This document shows, piece by piece, positions 48,237 through 51,893 of a DNA stretch of 53,542 nucleotides. Below the pieces are notes generated by a model. That model saw only the letters and a program-made list of their open reading frames with translations. It was not told where the DNA came from and searched no databases. The position numbers and the translations under genes were made by a program. This DNA is from Actinomycetota bacterium. GTDB taxonomy: Bacteria > Actinomycetota > Acidimicrobiia > Acidimicrobiales > AC-14. Location of the stretch: assembly GCA_005888325.1 (NCBI GenBank), contig VAWU01000030.1:80349-133890 (forward strand). Direction: 5' to 3'. The first letter of the stretch is position 1. Every line of letters begins with the position of its first letter.

Positions 48237-48423
48237 CCCGGTGGAGACGCCACCGGGGCGAGGATCATCAGATTGACGACGAGGACCAAACCGACCGTCC
48301 GACGCGCTCGCGTTCTTCGCGGTGCGATCGTCTACCCCTCAGCGCGCCGGCAGCGACGCGCCTCGCCGGTCTCGTGACTCTAGGGGAGCGAGCCTCCACG
48401 CCCATCATTGAGATCTCGCCCTT

Positions 48424-48483
48424 TACATCCGTTCTGTCGCCGTGGACACAGACCCCGCCCGCCCCGGTCCGCATGATGAGCCC
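48424..48483 (+). promoter_or_regulatory. leader copy A: palindrome TCTGTC-gccgtg-GACACA centred ~42.5 nt upstream of the peptide ATG, then CATGATGAGCCC-ATG
   Basis: A ~75-nt direct repeat with copy B (48879-48955) has identical spacing between palindrome and ATG. It extends into the first codons. Confidence 0.55.
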
Positions 48484-48627
48484 ATGTTCACAACCGAAGA
48501 GATCGACACCTTCCCGCACGACGGTCCGACGGACTCGCTGATCAGATTGGCGAGCATCTCGTTCGCGCTGGCCACGCTGATCACGTTCGCCTGGATCGCC
48601 TTGGGCGTCCTGCTAGTCGGCTTCTGA
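48484..48627 (+). CDS. 47-aa peptide: a hydrophilic N-terminus plus one C-terminal TM helix
   Basis: MFTTEEIDTFPHDGPTDSLIRLASISFALATLITFAWIALGVLLVGF. Third codon positions are ~85% G/C. It follows leader copy A. Confidence 0.5.
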   Translation: MFTTEEIDTFPHDGPTDSLIRLASISFALATLITFAWIALGVLLVGF

Positions 48628-48638
48628 GCCCGGTCGGA

Positions 48639-48776
48639 ATGGTCGAACATCGCCATCCGCCTCCTCGACAGAGCGCCGGTCCGAGTGAGGAGAGCGCCAT
48701 CAAGACGATCTTCGCGGTCATGCTGCTCTGCATGGTCTTGGCGTGCGTTGCCGCGGTCGTCCTTCCGCTTCGGTGA
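48639..48776 (+). CDS. 45-aa peptide: a hydrophilic N-terminus plus one C-terminal TM helix
   Basis: MVEHRHPPPRQSAGPSEESAIKTIFAVMLLCMVLACVAAVVLPLR. The start lies 11 nt after the stop of the preceding peptide gene. The ORF is shorter than the ORF-track cutoff. Confidence 0.4.
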   Translation: MVEHRHPPPRQSAGPSEESAIKTIFAVMLLCMVLACVAAVVLPLR

Positions 48777-48878
48777 CAGCGGCTTGAGTCATCGACTATC
48801 ACGCAGTTCGGCCATCTCGGTCTTCCTACTGCTTGAACGTCGCGCATCAGTGAAATCACGAGTTTCCGGTAGTCGGCG

Positions 48879-48940
48879 TTTCCATCCGCTGTGTCGCCGA
48901 GGACACAGACCGGGCTCGTCGCAGTACCCATGATGGGCCC
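48879..48940 (+). promoter_or_regulatory. leader copy B: perfect 7-6-7 palindrome CTGTGTC-gccgag-GACACAG (48889-48908) centred ~42.5 nt upstream of the LuxR-type gene ATG, then CATGATGGGCCC-ATG
   Basis: A direct repeat of copy A, with the same palindrome-to-ATG spacing. Confidence 0.55.
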
Positions 48941-49222
48941 ATGGACATTCGAAGCATCGACGGCTCTCGCCGCCACGTCTCCCTCGAGGCCATGCCCGCC
49001 CTCGGAGAGGTGCTGACGCCCGGGGAGCTGCGCGTCGCATTGCTCGTGGCGGAGGGAGCCACCAACAACGAGGTCGCAGCATCGCTGTTCCTCAGTCGCA
49101 GGACGGTGGAGTCCCATCTCCTTTGCGTCTACCGCAAGCTGGGCATCAGATCCCGCTCCCAGCTTGCTCGCCTCGTTGCCATCGCGGCACGGGACCCATC
49201 CGAGGCCCGAGCAGTCGTCTGA
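48941..49222 (+). CDS. LuxR/GerE-type HTH protein (stand-alone, 93 aa)
   Basis: LTPGELRVALLVAEGATNNEVAASLFLSRRTVESHLLCVYRKLGI matches the GerE HTH signature. Confidence 0.7.
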   Translation: MDIRSIDGSRRHVSLEAMPALGEVLTPGELRVALLVAEGATNNEVAASLFLSRRTVESHLLCVYRKLGIRSRSQLARLVAIAARDPSEARAVV

Positions 49223-49252
49223 GTAACATCACGGTCCTCTGGGGAGGCGCCC

Positions 49253-50299
49253 ATGTGGAACATCACTCTGCGGAACATCCAGTTCCGACGCCGTCAGTTC
49301 CTGATCGCGGTGGTGGGTACTGCACTGGTCTTCGGCATGGCCCTTCTCGTGACCGGCATTCGACAGGGCTTCGAGACCGAAGCCGACCGGATGCTCGGCG
49401 CCATGGGTGGCGACCACTGGGTCATCCGGGCCGGCGCCTCGGGACCGTTCACGGGGTTCGCACCGGTGGTGGCGCGTCTTGCAGACGACCTCGCCAGGGC
49501 CCCGGGAGTCCGTGAGGCGGACCCGGTCATCCTCTTTCCCCAGACCGTCGGCGAAGGTGTGCACGCCAGGACCGTCAACGTGGTCGGCCATCGCAAGGGG
49601 GGCTTCGGCGACCCCTCGCTCGTTGCCGGGCGACCCGCAACCGCCGAGGGTGACGCGGTCGTCGACAAGAAGCTCCACCTGCGAATCGGCGAGCGATTCG
49701 CCATGTCGGGCCGCAAGTTCAGGGTCGTCGGGCTCGTCGAGGGCCGGACGTACTTCGCGGGGACACCGACTGCCTTCTTGCGTCTCGAGGACGCCCAGGC
49801 ACTGTTGGGGGGCGGCCCACTCGCGACCTCGATCATCATGGAGGGAAGTCCGACCGTGACCGTTCCCGGCCTCAAGGTGCTGCCGTTGTCCGCGGTCAAG
49901 GCGGATCTGCTCAAACCGGTGCGCCAGGCCGAACAGTCGATCAACAAGGTGCGGCTGCTGCTGTGGCTGGTGGCCGCCATCATCGTCGGCGCGGTGATGT
50001 ACATGTCGGCGTTGGAGCGGGTGCGCGACTTCGCGGTTCTCAAGGCGGTGGGCGCCTCTTCGCGCGTACTCGTGACAAGCCTTGCGATCGAGGCGGTCAT
50101 TGCCTGCTTGGTCTCCGCGGCATTGGCCATCGGCGTGGCTCGACTGCTCCGACCGATCATCCCGCTACCGGTCAGCTACAGCGGGAGCGCGTACGCAGTC
50201 CTACCCGTCGTCGCGGTGATCGTGGGCGTGCTCTCCAGCCTCTCAGGCGTGCGCCGAGCGGTAAACACGGATCCCGCCGCAGCGTTCGCGGGGGCGTGA
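49253..50299 (+). CDS. ABC transporter permease, FtsX/MacB-like (4 TM with a large extracytoplasmic loop)
   Basis: RBS gggagg. TM1 is followed by a ~200-aa loop and then three C-terminal TM helices, the FtsX-like layout. Confidence 0.7.
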   Translation: MWNITLRNIQFRRRQFLIAVVGTALVFGMALLVTGIRQGFETEADRMLGAMGGDHWVIRAGASGPFTGFAPVVARLADDLARAPGVREADPVILFPQTVGEGVHARTVNVVGHRKGGFGDPSLVAGRPATAEGDAVVDKKLHLRIGERFAMSGRKFRVVGLVEGRTYFAGTPTAFLRLEDAQALLGGGPLATSIIMEGSPTVTVPGLKVLPLSAVKADLLKPVRQAEQSINKVRLLLWLVAAIIVGAVMYMSALERVRDFAVLKAVGASSRVLVTSLAIEAVIACLVSAALAIGVARLLRPIIPLPVSYSGSAYAVLPVVAVIVGVLSSLSGVRRAVNTDPAAAFAGA

Positions 50300-51294
50300 T
50301 GTCACACCTCGAGATCCGCGACCTCACCATCGAGTACACGCAGGGCGAGTACCTGGTGCGTCCCATCGACTCGCTGAACGTGGACGCGGACGACGGCGAG
50401 CTCGTCATCCTCCTCGGTCCGAGCGGGTGTGGGAAGACGACGCTCCTCTCCTGCCTGGCCGGCATCCTCACCCCCACGTCGGGCACCATCCGGCTCGGCG
50501 GCGAAGTGATCACGTCGCTGCACGGTTCGGCGCTGGCGGCCTACCGCCGGCACACCGTCGGCATCGTGTTCCAGGCGTTCAACCTGATCCCGAGCCTGAG
50601 CGCGCGTGAGAACGTGATGGCGCCCATGCGTCTGGCGGGCCTCGGGCTTCGGCAGGCCCGGCCCCGCGCCGAAGAGCTGTTGACGATGGTCGGGCTCGAG
50701 CAGCGCATGGACCATCGTCCCAAGGCACTCTCCGGTGGCCAGCAACAGCGCGTCGCGATCGCCAGGGCGCTGGTGCACGAGCCTTCGCTGGTCGTCGCCG
50801 ATGAGCCCACGGCACACCTCGACTACGTCCAGGTCGAGGAAGTGCTCCGCATCGTCCGGCGCCTGGCCGCGCCCGGACGGATGGTGGTGATCGCGACCCA
50901 CGACGAGCGCCTCATCCCGCTGGCCGACCGCACGATCGAGCTCTTGCCGAAGGGGGCACCGGTCGAGGAGCAGCCGCCCCAGCGCCTGCCCCTCGCGGCC
51001 GGACAGTTCCTCTTCACGCAGGGCGTTGCGAGCGACTTCGTCTATCTCGTCGACGAAGGCGAGGTCGAGCTCCTGCGCGACCGCGCGGACGGGACCAAGG
51101 AGACCGTGCGCGTGGTGGGCCCCGGCGGCTACTTCGGCGAGCTGGGTCCGCTCCTCGGCCTTCCGCGATCGGCGTCCGCGCGCGCTCGCACAGCGGCGAT
51201 CGTCACCGGTCACACGTCGCGCGAGTTCAAGCGGATCTCCCGACCCGAGGCGACTCAGCCCCTCACGTCGTCACCGGTGGACGACGGTCGTTGA
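50299..51294 (+). CDS. ABC transporter ATP-binding protein (MacB/LolD-type) with a C-terminal cyclic-nucleotide-binding domain
   Basis: Walker A is GPSGCGKTT, the signature is LSGGQQQRV, and Walker B is LVVADEPT. Then QFLFTQGVASDFVYLVDEGEVELLRD...GPGGYFGELGPLLGLPRSASARARTAAIV forms a cNMP-binding fold. Confidence 0.75.
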   Translation: MSHLEIRDLTIEYTQGEYLVRPIDSLNVDADDGELVILLGPSGCGKTTLLSCLAGILTPTSGTIRLGGEVITSLHGSALAAYRRHTVGIVFQAFNLIPSLSARENVMAPMRLAGLGLRQARPRAEELLTMVGLEQRMDHRPKALSGGQQQRVAIARALVHEPSLVVADEPTAHLDYVQVEEVLRIVRRLAAPGRMVVIATHDERLIPLADRTIELLPKGAPVEEQPPQRLPLAAGQFLFTQGVASDFVYLVDEGEVELLRDRADGTKETVRVVGPGGYFGELGPLLGLPRSASARARTAAIVTGHTSREFKRISRPEATQPLTSSPVDDGR

Positions 51295-51893
51295 GCGACG
51301 TCACCCCAAGGATCGGATCCGACGGCGGAGCACCCGTCTTCGGTAAGCGGATCGCGATCATCGGCTCCGGCGGGTCGGGCAAGTCGACCTTCGCGCGTCA
51401 CTTGGGCAACGAGCTCGGCATCCCGGTGTTCCATCTCGACAAGTTGTTCTGGCGGCCCGGATGGGTGGAGACGCCCCAGCCCGACTGGCGCGCCGCACAG
51501 GAGAAGCTCGTCCAAGCCGACTCCTGGATCATCGACGGCAACCACGAACCCACCCTCGACGTACGCCTGAGCCGCGCCGACACGATCGTGATGCTCGACT
51601 ACGGCCGGATCCGATGCCTGTGGCGGGTGGTCCGGCGCTGGCAGCACTACCGAGGCAAACCTCGCTACGACCGCGCCGCCGGCTGCGACGAGCGGCTCGA
51701 CCGTGCGTTCCTCGCCTGGGTTTGGACCTATCCCACCAAGGGACGACCGCGCGCGCTCGAGGCGGTGAAGCGCTACGGAGGCGGCGCACGCCTCGTGCGG
51801 CTGCGTGGCCCCCGCGAGACGCAGCGGCTCCTCGCCGAGCTCTCGCCGGCATTCAGGCCCGGCTCTCGACGGCGTCCACCAATAGTCCGCTAG
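51291..51893 (+). CDS. P-loop NTPase (adenylate-kinase-like / topology-modulation-protein-like)
   Basis: The TTG start overlaps the upstream stop. The P-loop is IIGSGGSGKST. Confidence 0.55.
   Translation: MSDVTPRIGSDGGAPVFGKRIAIIGSGGSGKSTFARHLGNELGIPVFHLDKLFWRPGWVETPQPDWRAAQEKLVQADSWIIDGNHEPTLDVRLSRADTIVMLDYGRIRCLWRVVRRWQHYRGKPRYDRAAGCDERLDRAFLAWVWTYPTKGRPRALEAVKRYGGGARLVRLRGPRETQRLLAELSPAFRPGSRRRPPIVR

What the first reader, a model, noticed from the sequence alone, without database searches (positions are those of the whole stretch)
48395..51893. Candidate new module: two tiny TM peptides, a LuxR-type HTH, a MacB/FtsX-type ABC exporter with a cNMP-gated ATPase, and a P-loop NTPase, carrying a duplicated regulatory leader
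The sequence shows two adjacent ORFs of 47 and 45 aa, each with a polar N-terminus and a single C-terminal TM helix. A GerE-type HTH gene, an FtsX/MacB-like permease, an ABC ATPase with a C-terminal cyclic-nucleotide-binding domain and a P-loop NTPase follow them, with the last three coupled through TGATG and TTGA start-stop overlaps. The peptide pair and the LuxR-led operon are each preceded by the same ~75-nt leader. From established knowledge, MacB/FtsX-type exporters commonly handle peptides, bacteriocins or lipoproteins and are often co-encoded with small regulators. A cNMP-binding domain on an ABC ATPase is an unusual fusion. My inference is that this is a cAMP/cGMP-gated peptide export or peptide-sensing system not described as such. 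The peptides could be exported signals, toxins, or regulatory partners.
Basis: partly seen in the sequence, partly recalled or inferred. Interest (0 to 1): 0.85.

Follow-up and report, generated by a model that had tools for sequence, protein, structure and literature searches.

The report
cAMP-controlled promoter pair, transporter, two peptides
A soil actinobacterium carries a known but unstudied kind of membrane pump whose motor has a cyclic-nucleotide sensor; next to it sit a small regulator gene and two tiny membrane-peptide genes, and what looked like a duplicated leader is most likely a twice-copied promoter that a cAMP-type regulator switches on.

Summary
All six ORFs, their domains, the TGATG and TTGA overlaps and the repeated leader are present.

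- The ABC ATPase fused to a cyclic-nucleotide-binding (CNB) domain, paired with an FtsX/MacB permease, is a widespread family. It has the same domain architecture as M. tuberculosis Rv0072/73 and Rv2563/64.
- The window also has a CNB-patatin gene, as Rv2565 does.
- The leader shows no RNA signal. It contains an 18-bp palindrome, TSTGTC-N6-GRCACA, centred exactly 42.5 nt before the ATG in seven instances from three lineages.
- A CATGAT -10-like hexamer ends 7 nt before the ATG, and there is no Shine-Dalgarno sequence. This looks like an activator-dependent promoter of leaderless mRNAs.
- The box occurs four times in the window.
- In unrelated metagenome contigs the same box lies upstream of Crp-family genes. 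Two of those four loci share the exact recognition helix of the window's Crp gene.
- The duplication arose from paralogous divergent promoter regions, brought together when an intervening gene was deleted.
- The two peptides are real, conserved and rare. They track the GerE gene rather than the transporter, so a peptide-export role is unlikely.

Verdict: a new variant of a known kind, of moderate interest.

The parts
41353..43335 (-). cNMP_binding + patatin gene, divergent from the giant gene. It has the same domain pair as M. tuberculosis Rv2565. The true start is probably downstream of 43335.
   Evidence: Pfam gives Patatin 8e-32 and cNMP_binding 2.6e-23. In L120/L121 the same kind of gene directly follows FtsX and ABC-CNB.
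43315..43332 (.). Box 3: TGTGTCCTCGCCGACAGA. CATGCT follows 19 nt later (43352-43357). The box centre lies about 94 nt upstream of ATG 43417 of the giant gene.
43417..47970 (+). Giant secreted protein (about 1517 aa) with PD40 beta-propeller repeats. It belongs to a local paralogue family.
   Evidence: paralogues seen
48047..48330 (-). Decayed remnant of a giant-protein paralogue. It joins a C-terminal fragment (67% aa, 74% nt identity to the end of the giant gene, inverted) to an N-terminal signal-peptide fragment. The remnant is absent from relative L117.
48397..48486 (+). Leader copy 1, read as the pep1 promoter. Box 48433-48450 is TCTGTCGCCGTGGACACA. The -10-like CATGAT lies at 48472-48477. 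The ATG at 48484 is the presumed transcription start (leaderless).
48484..48627 (+). pep1, 47 aa. It has an acidic N-terminus and a C-terminal TM helix.
   Evidence: Homologues occur in L090, L091, L116 and L117. The codon-usage log-likelihood ratio is +10.5 bits for the sense frame.
48639..48776 (+). pep2, 45 aa, with a C-terminal TM helix.
   Evidence: P0153 (91%) and P0154 (64%) are the only hits among 1.84e9 representative proteins. Homologues occur in L090, L116 and L117. The log-likelihood ratio is +2.5 bits.
48826..48840 (-). Last four codons plus stop (TFKQ*) of a deleted giant paralogue. In L117 that paralogue still lies between pep2 and the second leader.
48838..48943 (+). Leader copy 2, read as the GerE operon promoter. 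Box 48890-48907 is TGTGTCGCCGAGGACACA. CATGAT lies at 48929-48934. The ATG is at 48941.
48941..49222 (+). Stand-alone GerE/LuxR-type HTH protein, 93 aa.
   Evidence: PF00196 at 1e-15. Close relatives are few.
49253..50299 (+). FtsX/MacB-type permease with four TM helices and an extracytoplasmic MacB_PCD domain. HrtB is the closest solved structure.
   Evidence: 7w78_B at E 2.6e-14 over the full length
50299..51294 (+). ABC ATPase of the MacB/LolD/FtsE clade with a C-terminal cyclic-nucleotide-binding domain.
51291..51893 (+). FlaR-like P-loop kinase-fold protein ('DNA topology modulation protein' family).
   Evidence: It is conserved after ABC in L001 (73%) and after the deletion in L090/L116 (75%).
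51923..51938 (.). Box 4: GTGTCGCCACCGACAC, a perfect palindrome core. Its centre is about 91 nt upstream of the ATG of the CNB-only gene.
   Evidence: An analogous box follows the P-loop gene in L090.
52021..52494 (+). CNB-only protein, 157 aa.
   Evidence: PF00027 at 1.9e-9
52498..53151 (-). Crp/FNR-family regulator (CNB + HTH_Crp_2), the candidate box-binding protein. It lies directly downstream of a TPR + class III cyclase-like gene.

Best explanation
Window 41.3-53.5 kb is a cyclic-nucleotide signalling island.

Conserved core: an FtsX/MacB-type (type VII, HrtB-like) permease and an ABC ATPase whose C-terminus is a CNB domain. This is the same architecture as M. tuberculosis Rv0072/73 and Rv2563/64. 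A FlaR-like P-loop protein follows.

The 'duplicated leader' is not an RNA leader. It is two paralogous copies of an activator-dependent promoter. Each copy has:
- an 18-bp palindromic operator, TSTGTC-N6-GRCACA, centred 42.5 nt upstream of the ATG;
- no -35 element;
- a CATGAT -10-like hexamer ending 7 nt before the ATG;
- no Shine-Dalgarno sequence.
So pep1-pep2 and GerE-FtsX-ABC-P-loop are probably transcribed as leaderless mRNAs.

Two more boxes lie in the window. One sits between the CNB-patatin gene and the giant secreted-protein gene. The other is upstream of a CNB-only gene.

The most likely box-binding protein is the Crp-family regulator at 52498-53151. It would act as a class II-type activator when a cyclic nucleotide from the adjacent cyclase-like gene product is bound. 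The same nucleotide would then also act on the ATPase through its own CNB domain, giving two layers of control.

The two leaders lie 457 nt apart only because a giant-protein paralogue that separated them in close relatives has been deleted.

pep1 and pep2 are real, narrowly distributed tail-anchored membrane peptides. Their evolution is tied to the GerE regulator. They are most likely membrane partners or modulators of GerE or of the permease, not cargo.

Shown: the genes, domains, boxes, promoter geometry, synteny and rearrangements.
Inferred: leaderless transcription, the identity of the box-binding protein, nucleotide gating of the ATPase, and the role of the peptides.
For: The fusion is common:
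- All 120 top homologues carry PF00005 + PF00027.
- The phosphate-binding cassette residues F279 G280 E281 L282 G283, P289 R290, A292 and A294 are invariant in 23 sequences down to 60% identity.
- The AF2 model has mean pLDDT 85.5. Residues 228-314 show a run of beta-strands, a short helix at the cassette (282-286) and a C-terminal helix.

Synteny:
- FtsX, ABC-CNB and CNB-patatin form one operon in L120/L121.
- Class III cyclases and a Crp-family gene lie next to the pair in other relatives.
- The window has CNB-patatin at 41353-43335.

Promoter reading:
- The box-to-ATG distance is 42.5 nt in 7 of 7 instances from three lineages, while the 19-nt spacer varies.
- CATGATG and the box are invariant blocks.
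- No sigma-70 -35/-10 pair is found.
- RNA folding z-scores are +0.97, -0.95 and +0.47.
- Rfam gives no match.

Box multiplicity:
- Three matches to the 19-mer against 0.02 expected.
- Ten matches to the core against 3.55 expected, reached by 0 of 100 shuffles. The four intergenic matches all lie upstream of + strand genes.

Crp link:
- Of 24 metagenome matches to the box, 7 (four independent loci) lie about 50-80 nt upstream of, and divergent from, a Crp217 homologue. No GerE gene is detectable on those contigs.
- The recognition helix TRPTANR[IV]LRR is shared exactly by two of the four loci, L092 and L107. L093/L095 carry SRPTTNRYLRR. L100 is cut off before the helix.
- Crp217 is the only CNB+HTH protein in the window.

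Origin of the duplication: L117 has pep2 followed by a convergent giant paralogue, and L089 has that paralogue divergent from leader-GerE. The window keeps only its last four codons.

Peptides:
- They are conserved in four contig lineages, with indels that keep the reading frame and near-invariant TM halves.
- The codon-usage test favours the + strand.
- JGI called them as genes in L090, L116 and L117.
Against: - No transcription start site has been measured, so the position -42.5 and the leaderless status are inferences.
- The box differs from the canonical CRP site: TGTG and CACA are 10 nt apart rather than 8.
- No box was found upstream of the cyclase-Crp217 operon in same-species contigs, so autoregulation is not seen here, unlike at the metagenome loci.
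- In this clade the box always accompanies GerE, so GerE is a live alternative as the binding protein.
- My metagenome pattern fixed the central spacer and the GACC flank, which biases what could be found.
- pN/pS for the peptides is only 0.4-0.8 on few sites, and the antisense ORF stays open in all relatives.
- Homology to Rv0073/Rv2564 rests on shared domain architecture and the literature, not on a direct alignment.
Confidence: 0.55

Rival explanations
1. One reading: a cyclic-nucleotide-gated MacB-type exporter whose cargo or sensed ligand is the pep1/pep2 pair, acting as exported signals, toxins or a two-peptide bacteriocin.
For: - The peptide genes are adjacent to the transporter and share its promoter type.
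- MacB-family pumps are said to release protein effectors (PMC7761784). That they handle peptides is otherwise established knowledge rather than something tested here.
Against: - The transporter occurs without the peptides in L001, L002, L118-L121 and the P0008 contig.
- The peptides and GerE persist where FtsX and ABC are deleted, leaving a 30-aa FtsX remnant (L090, L116).
- In close relative L117 a giant-protein paralogue gene lies between pep2 and the GerE operon.
- The peptides show no signal peptide, double-glycine leader or C39 peptidase. The conserved part is the TM helix and the polar N-terminus varies.
- Pfam and PADLOC give no hits.
Confidence: 0.1
2. The palindromic box is the operator of the small GerE/LuxR-type protein. 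GerE would autoregulate its own operon and control pep1-pep2, the giant gene and the CNB-only gene. The Crp-family protein would not be involved.
For: - In every contig of this clade that carries the leader, either GerE is on the same contig (window, L089, L090, L091, L116) or the contig ends before the place where GerE would lie (L117).
- Relatives without GerE (L001, L002, L118-L121) have no box upstream of FtsX.
- GerE-type dimers bind inverted repeats, and autoregulation is common (established knowledge).
Against: - The same box lies just upstream of Crp217-like genes at four independent metagenome loci, with no GerE homologue detectable on those contigs.
- Two of these loci share Crp217's recognition helix exactly.
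- Relatives that lack the box also lack a nearby Crp217 orthologue, so co-occurrence does not separate the two candidates.
- A box centre about 42 nt upstream with no -35 element is the class II Crp/FNR geometry.
Confidence: 0.25
3. The repeated element is a cis-acting RNA leader (riboswitch, attenuator or sRNA target) whose hairpin CUGUGUC-N6-GACACAG controls both transcripts.
For: Copy 2 can form a perfect 7-bp hairpin, and the element lies directly 5' of two start codons.
Against: - Rfam gives no match.
- Folding energies are no better than shuffled sequence, and the predicted folds differ between copies.
- The G/C variation in the left arm (TCTGTC or TGTGTC) is not compensated in the right arm, which is always CACA.
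- A conserved -10-like hexamer lies 7 nt before an ATG that has no Shine-Dalgarno sequence, which argues that the hairpin is not transcribed.
- Boxes 3 and 4 share only the palindrome, not the surrounding sequence.
Confidence: 0.03
4. pep1 and pep2 are not genes. The coding signal belongs to the antisense 75-77 aa ORF (48423-48656, minus strand) that gene callers annotate on identical contigs, or the region is non-coding debris from the rearrangements.
For: - Prodigal-type calls on L083-L086 chose the minus-strand ORF.
- GC3 cannot tell the two strands apart, because their third codon positions coincide.
- The antisense frame stays open in all relatives.
- pN/pS is weak.
Against: - The codon-usage test gives pep1 +10.5 and pep2 +2.5 bits for the sense frames, against -3.2 and -4.4 for the antisense frames. 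True genes average +15.2 and shadow frames -17.7.
- In L090 and L116 the antisense frame runs 184 aa straight through the antisense of the verified GerE gene, so it is a shadow ORF.
- The pep1 ATG sits at exactly the same promoter register as the GerE ATG.
- In L090 the genes are tightly packed as in an operon: a 23-nt gap with a GGAG, and a 4-nt overlap.
- The TM helices are hydrophobic and their substitutions are conservative (I/V/L/F).
Confidence: 0.07

Closest known systems
M. tuberculosis Rv2563-Rv2564-Rv2565 and Rv0072-Rv0073 (MacB-like type VII ABC transporters whose ATPase carries a CNB domain; Rv2565 is CNB + patatin)
   Same: - A separate FtsX-type permease of about 349 aa with four TM helices and an extracytoplasmic domain, plus an ATPase of about 330 aa with ABC_tran and a C-terminal PF00027 domain.
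- A CNB-patatin gene nearby, operonic in L120/L121.
- Function unknown and not studied experimentally (PMC7761784, PMC4886424, PMC11107214).
   Different: - Here the patatin gene lies 6 kb away on the other strand.
- A giant secreted-protein gene, two peptide genes and a GerE gene are inserted between it and the transporter.
- A FlaR-like P-loop gene is translationally coupled downstream.
- Expression appears to be wired to a palindromic box.
- I could not make a direct sequence alignment to the Mtb proteins.
HrtBA haem extractor of Corynebacterium diphtheriae (PDB 7W78-7W7D) and the MacB, LolCDE and FtsEX family
   Same: - The permease aligns over its full length to HrtB (E 2.6e-14).
- The nucleotide-binding domain aligns to MacB, LolD and HrtA (E 1e-37 to 1e-46).
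- These pumps take substrates laterally from the outer leaflet and do not carry them across the membrane (PMC9271180).
   Different: - No solved family member has a CNB tail on the ATPase.
- The substrate here is unknown.
- I did not check the haem-ligand glutamate of HrtB.
Class II CRP/FNR-dependent promoters (E. coli CRP site TGTGA-N6-TCACA centred at -41.5)
   Same: - A palindromic site overlaps the missing -35 element and is centred about 42 nt upstream of the presumed start.
- A Crp-family CNB+HTH regulator and a cyclase are encoded nearby.
   Different: - The half-sites are TGTGTC/GACACA, so TGTG and CACA are 10 nt apart rather than 8.
- The recognition helix is RPTANRILRR, where E. coli CRP has RETVGRILK (the CRP sequence is from memory).
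- The promoters drive leaderless mRNAs.
- Binding has not been tested.
GerE-type stand-alone LuxR-family regulators
   Same: A protein of about 90 aa that consists only of the PF00196 HTH domain.
   Different: It is flanked by, or co-regulated with, two conserved tail-anchored peptides. I know of no described counterpart, and none turned up in the searches run here.

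Membership tests
MacB/FtsX-type (type VII) ABC transporter | Permease with the FtsX C-terminal 4-TM domain | tested here: met
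   PF02687 at 3.9e-12, residues 235-341
MacB/FtsX-type (type VII) ABC transporter | Large extracytoplasmic domain between TM1 and TM2 | tested here: met
   MacB_PCD PF12704 at 2.8e-9, residues 20-201; full-length match to HrtB 7w78_B
MacB/FtsX-type (type VII) ABC transporter | Nucleotide-binding domain of the MacB/LolD/FtsE clade | tested here: met
   Best PDB hits are MacB 2.8e-46 and LolD 1.5e-40. Best NCBIfam hits are DevA, FtsE, MacB and LolD, all below their equivalog cut-offs.
MacB/FtsX-type (type VII) ABC transporter | ATP-driven mechanotransmission or extraction of a substrate | not testable with these tools
   Needs biochemistry
Rv0073/Rv2564-type CNB-fused ABC ATPase | ABC_tran followed by a C-terminal PF00027 domain in one polypeptide of about 330 aa | tested here: met
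   all 120 top homologues share this architecture
Rv0073/Rv2564-type CNB-fused ABC ATPase | Translationally coupled upstream FtsX permease of about 349 aa | tested here: met
   TGATG overlap; the same pairing in L001, L002 and L118-L121
Rv0073/Rv2564-type CNB-fused ABC ATPase | Direct sequence orthology to Rv0073 or Rv2564 | not tested
   The Mtb sequences are not in any collection I could query. The link rests on domain architecture and PMC7761784 / PMC4886424.
Functional cyclic-nucleotide-binding domain | Phosphate-binding cassette (FGE...R-[ST]-A) and beta-barrel fold | tested here: met
   The sequence is FGELGPLLGLPRSASARA. F279, G280, E281, R290 and A292 are invariant. AF2 predicts a run of beta-strands plus the cassette helix at 228-314.
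Functional cyclic-nucleotide-binding domain | Binds cAMP or cGMP and changes ATPase activity | not testable with these tools
   ITC and ATPase assays are needed
Class II CRP/FNR-dependent promoter | Palindromic site centred near -41.5 relative to the transcription start, replacing the -35 element | tested here: inconclusive
   The centre is 42.5 nt from the ATG in 7 of 7 instances, and no -35 element is found. The transcription start is inferred from the -10-like CATGAT, not measured.
Class II CRP/FNR-dependent promoter | Canonical CRP consensus TGTGA-N6-TCACA | tested here: not met
   The box is TSTGTC-N6-GRCACA.
Class II CRP/FNR-dependent promoter | Cognate Crp-family regulator present and linked to the site | tested here: inconclusive
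   Crp217 is present. The same box lies upstream of Crp217 homologues at four independent loci, two of which have an identical recognition helix. No box lies upstream of Crp217's own operon.
Riboswitch or structured RNA leader | Match to a known RNA family, or a conserved stable fold with covariation | tested here: not met
   Rfam gives no relevant match. Folding z-scores are +0.97, -0.95 and +0.47. Arm changes are uncompensated.
Bacteriocin or exported-peptide locus | Precursor peptide with a leader or cleavage motif, a processing peptidase, and obligate co-occurrence with the exporter | tested here: not met
   No motif or peptidase was found. Co-occurrence fails in both directions.
LuxR/GerE HTH family | PF00196 HTH domain | tested here: met
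   1e-15, residues 24-78. There is no receiver or autoinducer domain.
FlaR-like 'DNA topology modulation protein' (NF005994) | Score above the curated cut-off | tested here: inconclusive
   199.7 bits against a cut-off of 215, with full-length alignment 18-183

The most novel reading that the evidence does not exclude
pep1, pep2 and the stand-alone GerE protein form a new kind of membrane-tethered transcription switch. The two tail-anchored peptides would hold or release GerE at the membrane in response to the state of the cyclic-nucleotide-gated, HrtB-like extractor. The whole unit would sit under a previously undescribed Crp subfamily that recognises TGTGTC-N6-GACACA at leaderless class II-type promoters.
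Probability: 0.12. Interest if true: 0.7.

Novelty: new variant of a known kind. Interest (0 to 1): 0.45.

Why it matters
CNB-fused MacB-type ATPases are found across Actinobacteria, including M. tuberculosis (Rv0073, Rv2564). They are among the cAMP effectors whose function is still unknown.

This locus offers a compact, testable setting for them:
- a candidate Crp-type operator with fixed geometry on leaderless promoters;
- a regulator whose recognition helix is shared by relatives that carry the same box;
- a transporter with its own nucleotide sensor.

If the two layers of cyclic-nucleotide control (transcription and ATPase) were confirmed, that would give a first handle on what these pumps respond to.

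The pep1-GerE-pep2 trio is a small, rare module that standard gene callers miss or annotate on the wrong strand. It may be a new small-protein partner of a LuxR-type regulator.

Tried and rejected
The patterns it chose were the generic motifs LGPSG[SC]GKT and [VI]FQAFNLI. All 80 loci were ordinary MacB-type ATPases matched only over residues 1-230.
2. pN/pS of the peptides in all six frames did not separate sense from antisense. A codon-usage likelihood test was used instead.
3. GC3 cannot discriminate the strands, because their third codon positions coincide.
4. I looked for an autoregulatory box upstream of the cyclase-Crp217 operon in longer same-species contigs and found none.
5. I looked for the box upstream of FtsX in more distant relatives and found none.
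6. Searches with pep1 (5.8e9 proteins, word-indexed) and pep2 (1.84e9 representatives, full HMMER) found only 2 hits each. The family is very narrow and no function can be transferred.
7. PADLOC gave only generic ATPase and HTH hits, so this is not a known defence system.
8. McCue et al. 2000, the original classification of Mtb cNMP-binding proteins, is not held in the library. Indirect citations were used instead.
9. A NarL-type 7-2-7 reading of CCCATGATGGG in copy 2 was considered and dropped, because the inverted repeat is not kept in the other copies.
10. I did not run a fold search of the AF2 model. The ATPase domain would dominate whole-chain hits, and Pfam plus the cassette motif already settle the CNB assignment.

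Full report
**1. What is in the sequence**

- pep1, 48484-48627, 47 aa
- pep2, 48639-48776, 45 aa
- a 93-aa GerE-type protein, 48941-49222
- a 348-aa permease, 49253-50299
- a 331-aa ATPase, 50299-51294
- a 200-aa P-loop protein with a TTG start, 51291-51893

Domain assignments:
- Pfam confirms GerE (1e-15).
- The permease matches FtsX (3.9e-12) and MacB_PCD (2.8e-9).
- The ATPase matches ABC_tran (1e-34) and cNMP_binding (1.9e-16, residues 232-312).
- NCBIfam places the P-loop protein next to the FlaR-like 'DNA topology modulation protein' family, at 199.7 bits against a cut-off of 215.

The TGATG and TTGA overlaps are visible. Both peptides have one strongly hydrophobic C-terminal segment.

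The repeated leader is real. The two copies share 71 ungapped nt at 79% identity, and both end on an ATG. The repeat extends upstream to about 48397 and 48838 if a 16-nt indel is allowed.

**2. The transporter is a member of a known, widespread family**

All 120 best homologues of the ATPase, down to 61% identity, carry the same ABC_tran + cNMP_binding fusion. In a 23-sequence alignment the phosphate-binding cassette (FGELG...PRSA.A) is invariant.

An AlphaFold2 model (mean pLDDT 85.5) shows, at residues 228-314, a run of beta-strands, a short helix at the cassette (282-286) and a C-terminal helix.

The nucleotide-binding domain is closest to MacB, LolD and HrtA. The permease aligns over its full length to HrtB of Corynebacterium diphtheriae (7w78_B, E 2.6e-14). 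HrtB extracts haem laterally from the outer leaflet (PMC9271180). No solved structure covers a CNB tail.

In the literature:
- M. tuberculosis Rv0072/73 and Rv2563/64 are described as MacB-like type VII transporters with four-helix permeases, an external domain and uncertain function (PMC7761784).
- Rv2564 and Rv2565 are listed with PF00027 (PMC4886424).
- Mycobacterial CNB domains linked to 'predicted ATPase activities' are said to remain uncharacterised (PMC11107214).

So the fusion is neither rare nor undescribed, but it is unstudied. I could not align the window proteins directly with the Mtb proteins. That link rests on domain architecture.

**3. Gene neighbourhoods**

Relatives of the pair sit next to cyclic-nucleotide genes:

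| Locus | ABC identity | Arrangement |
|---|---|---|
| L001 | 85% | cyclase-AAA-HTH_77, FtsX, ABC-CNB, P-loop (73%), cyclase |
| L002, L118/L119 | about 73-75% | FtsX, ABC-CNB, cyclase-AAA_16 |
| P0008 contig | 82% | cyclase, metallophosphoesterase, CNB protein, FtsX, ABC-CNB, Crp-family gene |
| L120/L121 | 65% | FtsX, ABC-CNB, CNB-patatin in one operon, the order I recall for Rv2563-65 |

The window also has a CNB-patatin gene, at 41353-43335 on the minus strand. It has a CNB-only gene (52021-52494) and a Crp/FNR-family gene (52498-53151, minus strand). The Crp gene lies directly downstream of a gene of about 609 aa with a TPR-like N-terminal part and a C-terminal part that reads like a class III cyclase (FADFRGFS motif, my reading). 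Pfam gave no hit on the C-terminal 114-aa fragment inside the window.

None of these relatives has the peptides, the short GerE gene or the leader. The conserved core is therefore FtsX plus ABC-CNB, sometimes with the P-loop gene. The rest is specific to this lineage.

**4. The 'leader' reads as a promoter with an operator, not as an RNA**

Evidence against an RNA element:
- Rfam finds nothing.
- The leaders fold no better than shuffled sequence, with z-scores of +0.97, -0.95 and +0.47.
- The G/C difference in the left arm of the hairpin is not compensated in the right arm.

I aligned seven instances from three lineages: window pep1, window GerE, L117, L089, L090, L091 and L116. Three blocks are conserved: a short motif (TTWCNYCC) just upstream of the box, an 18-bp palindrome TSTGTC-N6-GRCACA followed by GACC, and CATGATG-N5-ATG. 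The 19 nt between the box and the hexamer vary in sequence but never in length.

The geometry:
- The palindrome centre is 42.5 nt from the ATG in all seven instances.
- CATGAT has the A and the T that matter most in a -10 hexamer, and it ends 7 nt before the A of the ATG.
- There is no Shine-Dalgarno sequence before pep1 or GerE. FtsX (GGGGAGG), the CNB-only gene (AAGGA) and the lineage-C GerE (GGAG) each have one.
- No -35/-10 sigma-70 pair is detectable.

This is the layout of an activator-dependent promoter that produces leaderless mRNAs, which are common in Actinobacteria (established knowledge). It is an inference, because no transcription start has been measured.

**5. The box defines a small regulon**

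The 19-mer occurs three times in the window against 0.02 expected by chance. The core GTGTC-N6-GACAC with at most one mismatch occurs ten times against 3.55 expected, a count reached by 0 of 100 shuffles.

Four of those sites are intergenic, and all lie upstream of + strand genes:
- 43315-43332, between the CNB-patatin gene and the giant secreted-protein gene. CATGCT follows 19 nt later.
- 48433-48450, upstream of pep1.
- 48890-48907, upstream of GerE.
- 51923-51938, a perfect palindrome core upstream of the CNB-only gene.

L090 has an analogous box after its P-loop gene.

**6. Who binds the box**

One exact-pattern scan of the metagenome collection for TGTCGCCGNGGRCACAGACC gave 24 matches.
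- Twelve are conserved coding-sequence coincidences, five are singletons, and seven are discussed next.
- These seven represent four independent loci: L092; L093/L095/L108/L112; L100; and L107. In each, the box lies about 50-80 nt upstream of, and divergent from, a homologue of the window's Crp gene (37-41% identity). No GerE homologue is detectable on those contigs.

The recognition-helix segment of Crp217, TRPTANRILRR, is matched exactly (allowing I/V) in L092 and L107. L093/L095 carry SRPTTNRYLRR, and L100 is cut off before the helix. Crp217 is the only CNB+HTH protein in the window. This makes Crp217 the best candidate.

Caveats:
- My search pattern fixed the spacer and the flank.
- The box spacing differs from canonical CRP sites.
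- No box precedes the cyclase-Crp217 operon in same-species contigs.
- In this clade the box always travels with GerE.

I give Crp217 roughly twice the weight of GerE.

**7. Why the leader is duplicated**

The two copies are paralogous divergent promoter regions of giant-protein paralogues.
- In L089 (GerE 87%, FtsX N-terminal 203 aa with only a few differences from the window by eye) a giant paralogue on the minus strand diverges from a single leader-GerE-FtsX unit.
- In L117 (about 95% nt identity in the giant gene) the order is giant1, leader, pep1, pep2, then the 3' end of a convergent giant paralogue.
- The window retains only the last four codons and the stop of that paralogue (48826-48840). 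That deletion brought the two promoters to 457 nt apart.
- Upstream of leader 1 the window also carries a decayed paralogue, 48047-48330 on the minus strand, made of a C-terminal and an N-terminal fragment. L117 lacks it.

That L089 and L117 come from one population is my inference.

**8. The peptides**

Both are rare.
- pep1 found two clusters among 5.8e9 proteins.
- pep2 found two hits among 1.84e9 representatives with full HMMER.

Homologues exist in L117 (98% and 91%). They also exist in a second lineage, L090/L091/L116 (about 63% identity). There the order is leader, pep1, GerE, pep2, a 30-aa remnant of FtsX, then the P-loop gene. FtsX and ABC-CNB have been deleted in that lineage.

The TM halves are nearly invariant, and their substitutions are conservative (I/V/L/F). 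The polar N-termini diverge, with indels that keep the reading frame.

Which strand codes is not obvious:
- Gene callers annotate a 75-aa antisense ORF on identical contigs.
- GC3 cannot decide, because the third codon positions of the two strands coincide.
- pN/pS is weak (0.4-0.8).

Evidence for the + strand:
- A codon-usage likelihood test gives pep1 +10.5 and pep2 +2.5 bits, against -3.2 and -4.4 for the antisense frames. The calibration is +15.2 +/- 7.6 for true genes and -17.7 for shadow frames.
- In L090/L116 the antisense frame runs through the antisense of GerE, so it is a shadow ORF.
- The pep1 ATG sits in the same promoter register as the GerE ATG.

The peptides follow GerE rather than the transporter. 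They lack any export or cleavage signature. They have no Pfam or PADLOC match. I read them as tail-anchored membrane partners of GerE or of the permease, with low confidence about the mechanism.

**9. Verdict**

The core is a member of a known but uncharacterised family. The local additions make it a new variant:
- a Crp-type box on leaderless promoters, repeated four times;
- a pep1/GerE/pep2 module;
- coupling to a FlaR-like P-loop gene.

The source is an uncultured soil actinobacterium, a MAG annotated 'Actinobacteria bacterium' (TML90583.1 and TML90605.1).

Noticed in passing
window 43417-47970; 48047-48330 (minus strand); 48826-48840 (minus strand); L089 2-1993; L117 1463-1594; L122 669-5369 and 6806-8056: A family of giant secreted PD40-repeat proteins shares a conserved C-terminal motif of about 45 aa (GxYTxTFxMP...YKxxxH...C). 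The family is expanding, inverting and decaying around this locus. The window holds one intact copy, one internally deleted inverted remnant, and a four-codon stub of a third copy.
   Followed up: partly
window 41353-43335 (minus strand): A cNMP_binding + patatin gene, the same domain pair as M. tuberculosis Rv2565. It diverges from the giant gene, with box 3 in the shared intergenic region. In L120/L121 the same kind of gene is fused into the FtsX and ABC-CNB operon.
   Followed up: partly
window 51923-51938; L090 2488-2505: A fourth box, a perfect palindrome, lies between the P-loop gene and the CNB-only gene. The lineage that lost FtsX and ABC has an equivalent box after its P-loop gene.
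   Followed up: partly
L090 1737-1829; L116 about 1000-1026: One lineage has deleted FtsX and ABC-CNB. It keeps the Shine-Dalgarno sequence and the first nine codons of FtsX (MWNITLRNI). In L090 these open a 30-aa ORF remnant. In L116 they read on, in a different frame from the P-loop gene. pep1, GerE, pep2 and the P-loop gene remain intact.
   Followed up: yes
L083-L086 (identical to window 48423-48656, minus strand): Automatic gene calling on same-species contigs annotates a 75-aa antisense shadow ORF instead of pep1 and pep2. Public annotations of this organism therefore probably miss both peptides.
   Followed up: yes
L100 about 640-842; L107 1992-2219: At two of the Crp-linked box loci, the gene on the far side of the box is a small conserved ORF (...TDLAHHHP...LTWHQAF[IV]GALIHSA[NS]IAP) of unknown function. 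It may be a conserved target of this Crp subfamily.
   Followed up: no
window 6196-7461 (minus strand); 53197-53542 (minus strand): There are two more cyclase-type signalling genes. The first has an AAA_16/STAND ATPase domain, and its N-terminus reads like a class III cyclase motif (TFLLTDVEGST); Pfam reported only the ATPase. The second is the 3' end of a TPR + cyclase-like gene of about 609 aa, directly upstream of Crp217.
   Followed up: partly
window 48190-48311 versus L085 728-847: One same-species contig carries a divergent replacement segment of about 120 nt inside the decayed paralogue remnant. The flanks are 99.6-100% identical, so this is strain-level variation.
   Followed up: no
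window 30851-31933 and 31985-33097: Two adjacent paralogous genes of about 365 aa each contain a near-box (GTGTCGACGCSGTCAC) at the same internal position. This is almost certainly coding-sequence coincidence, not an operator.
   Followed up: no
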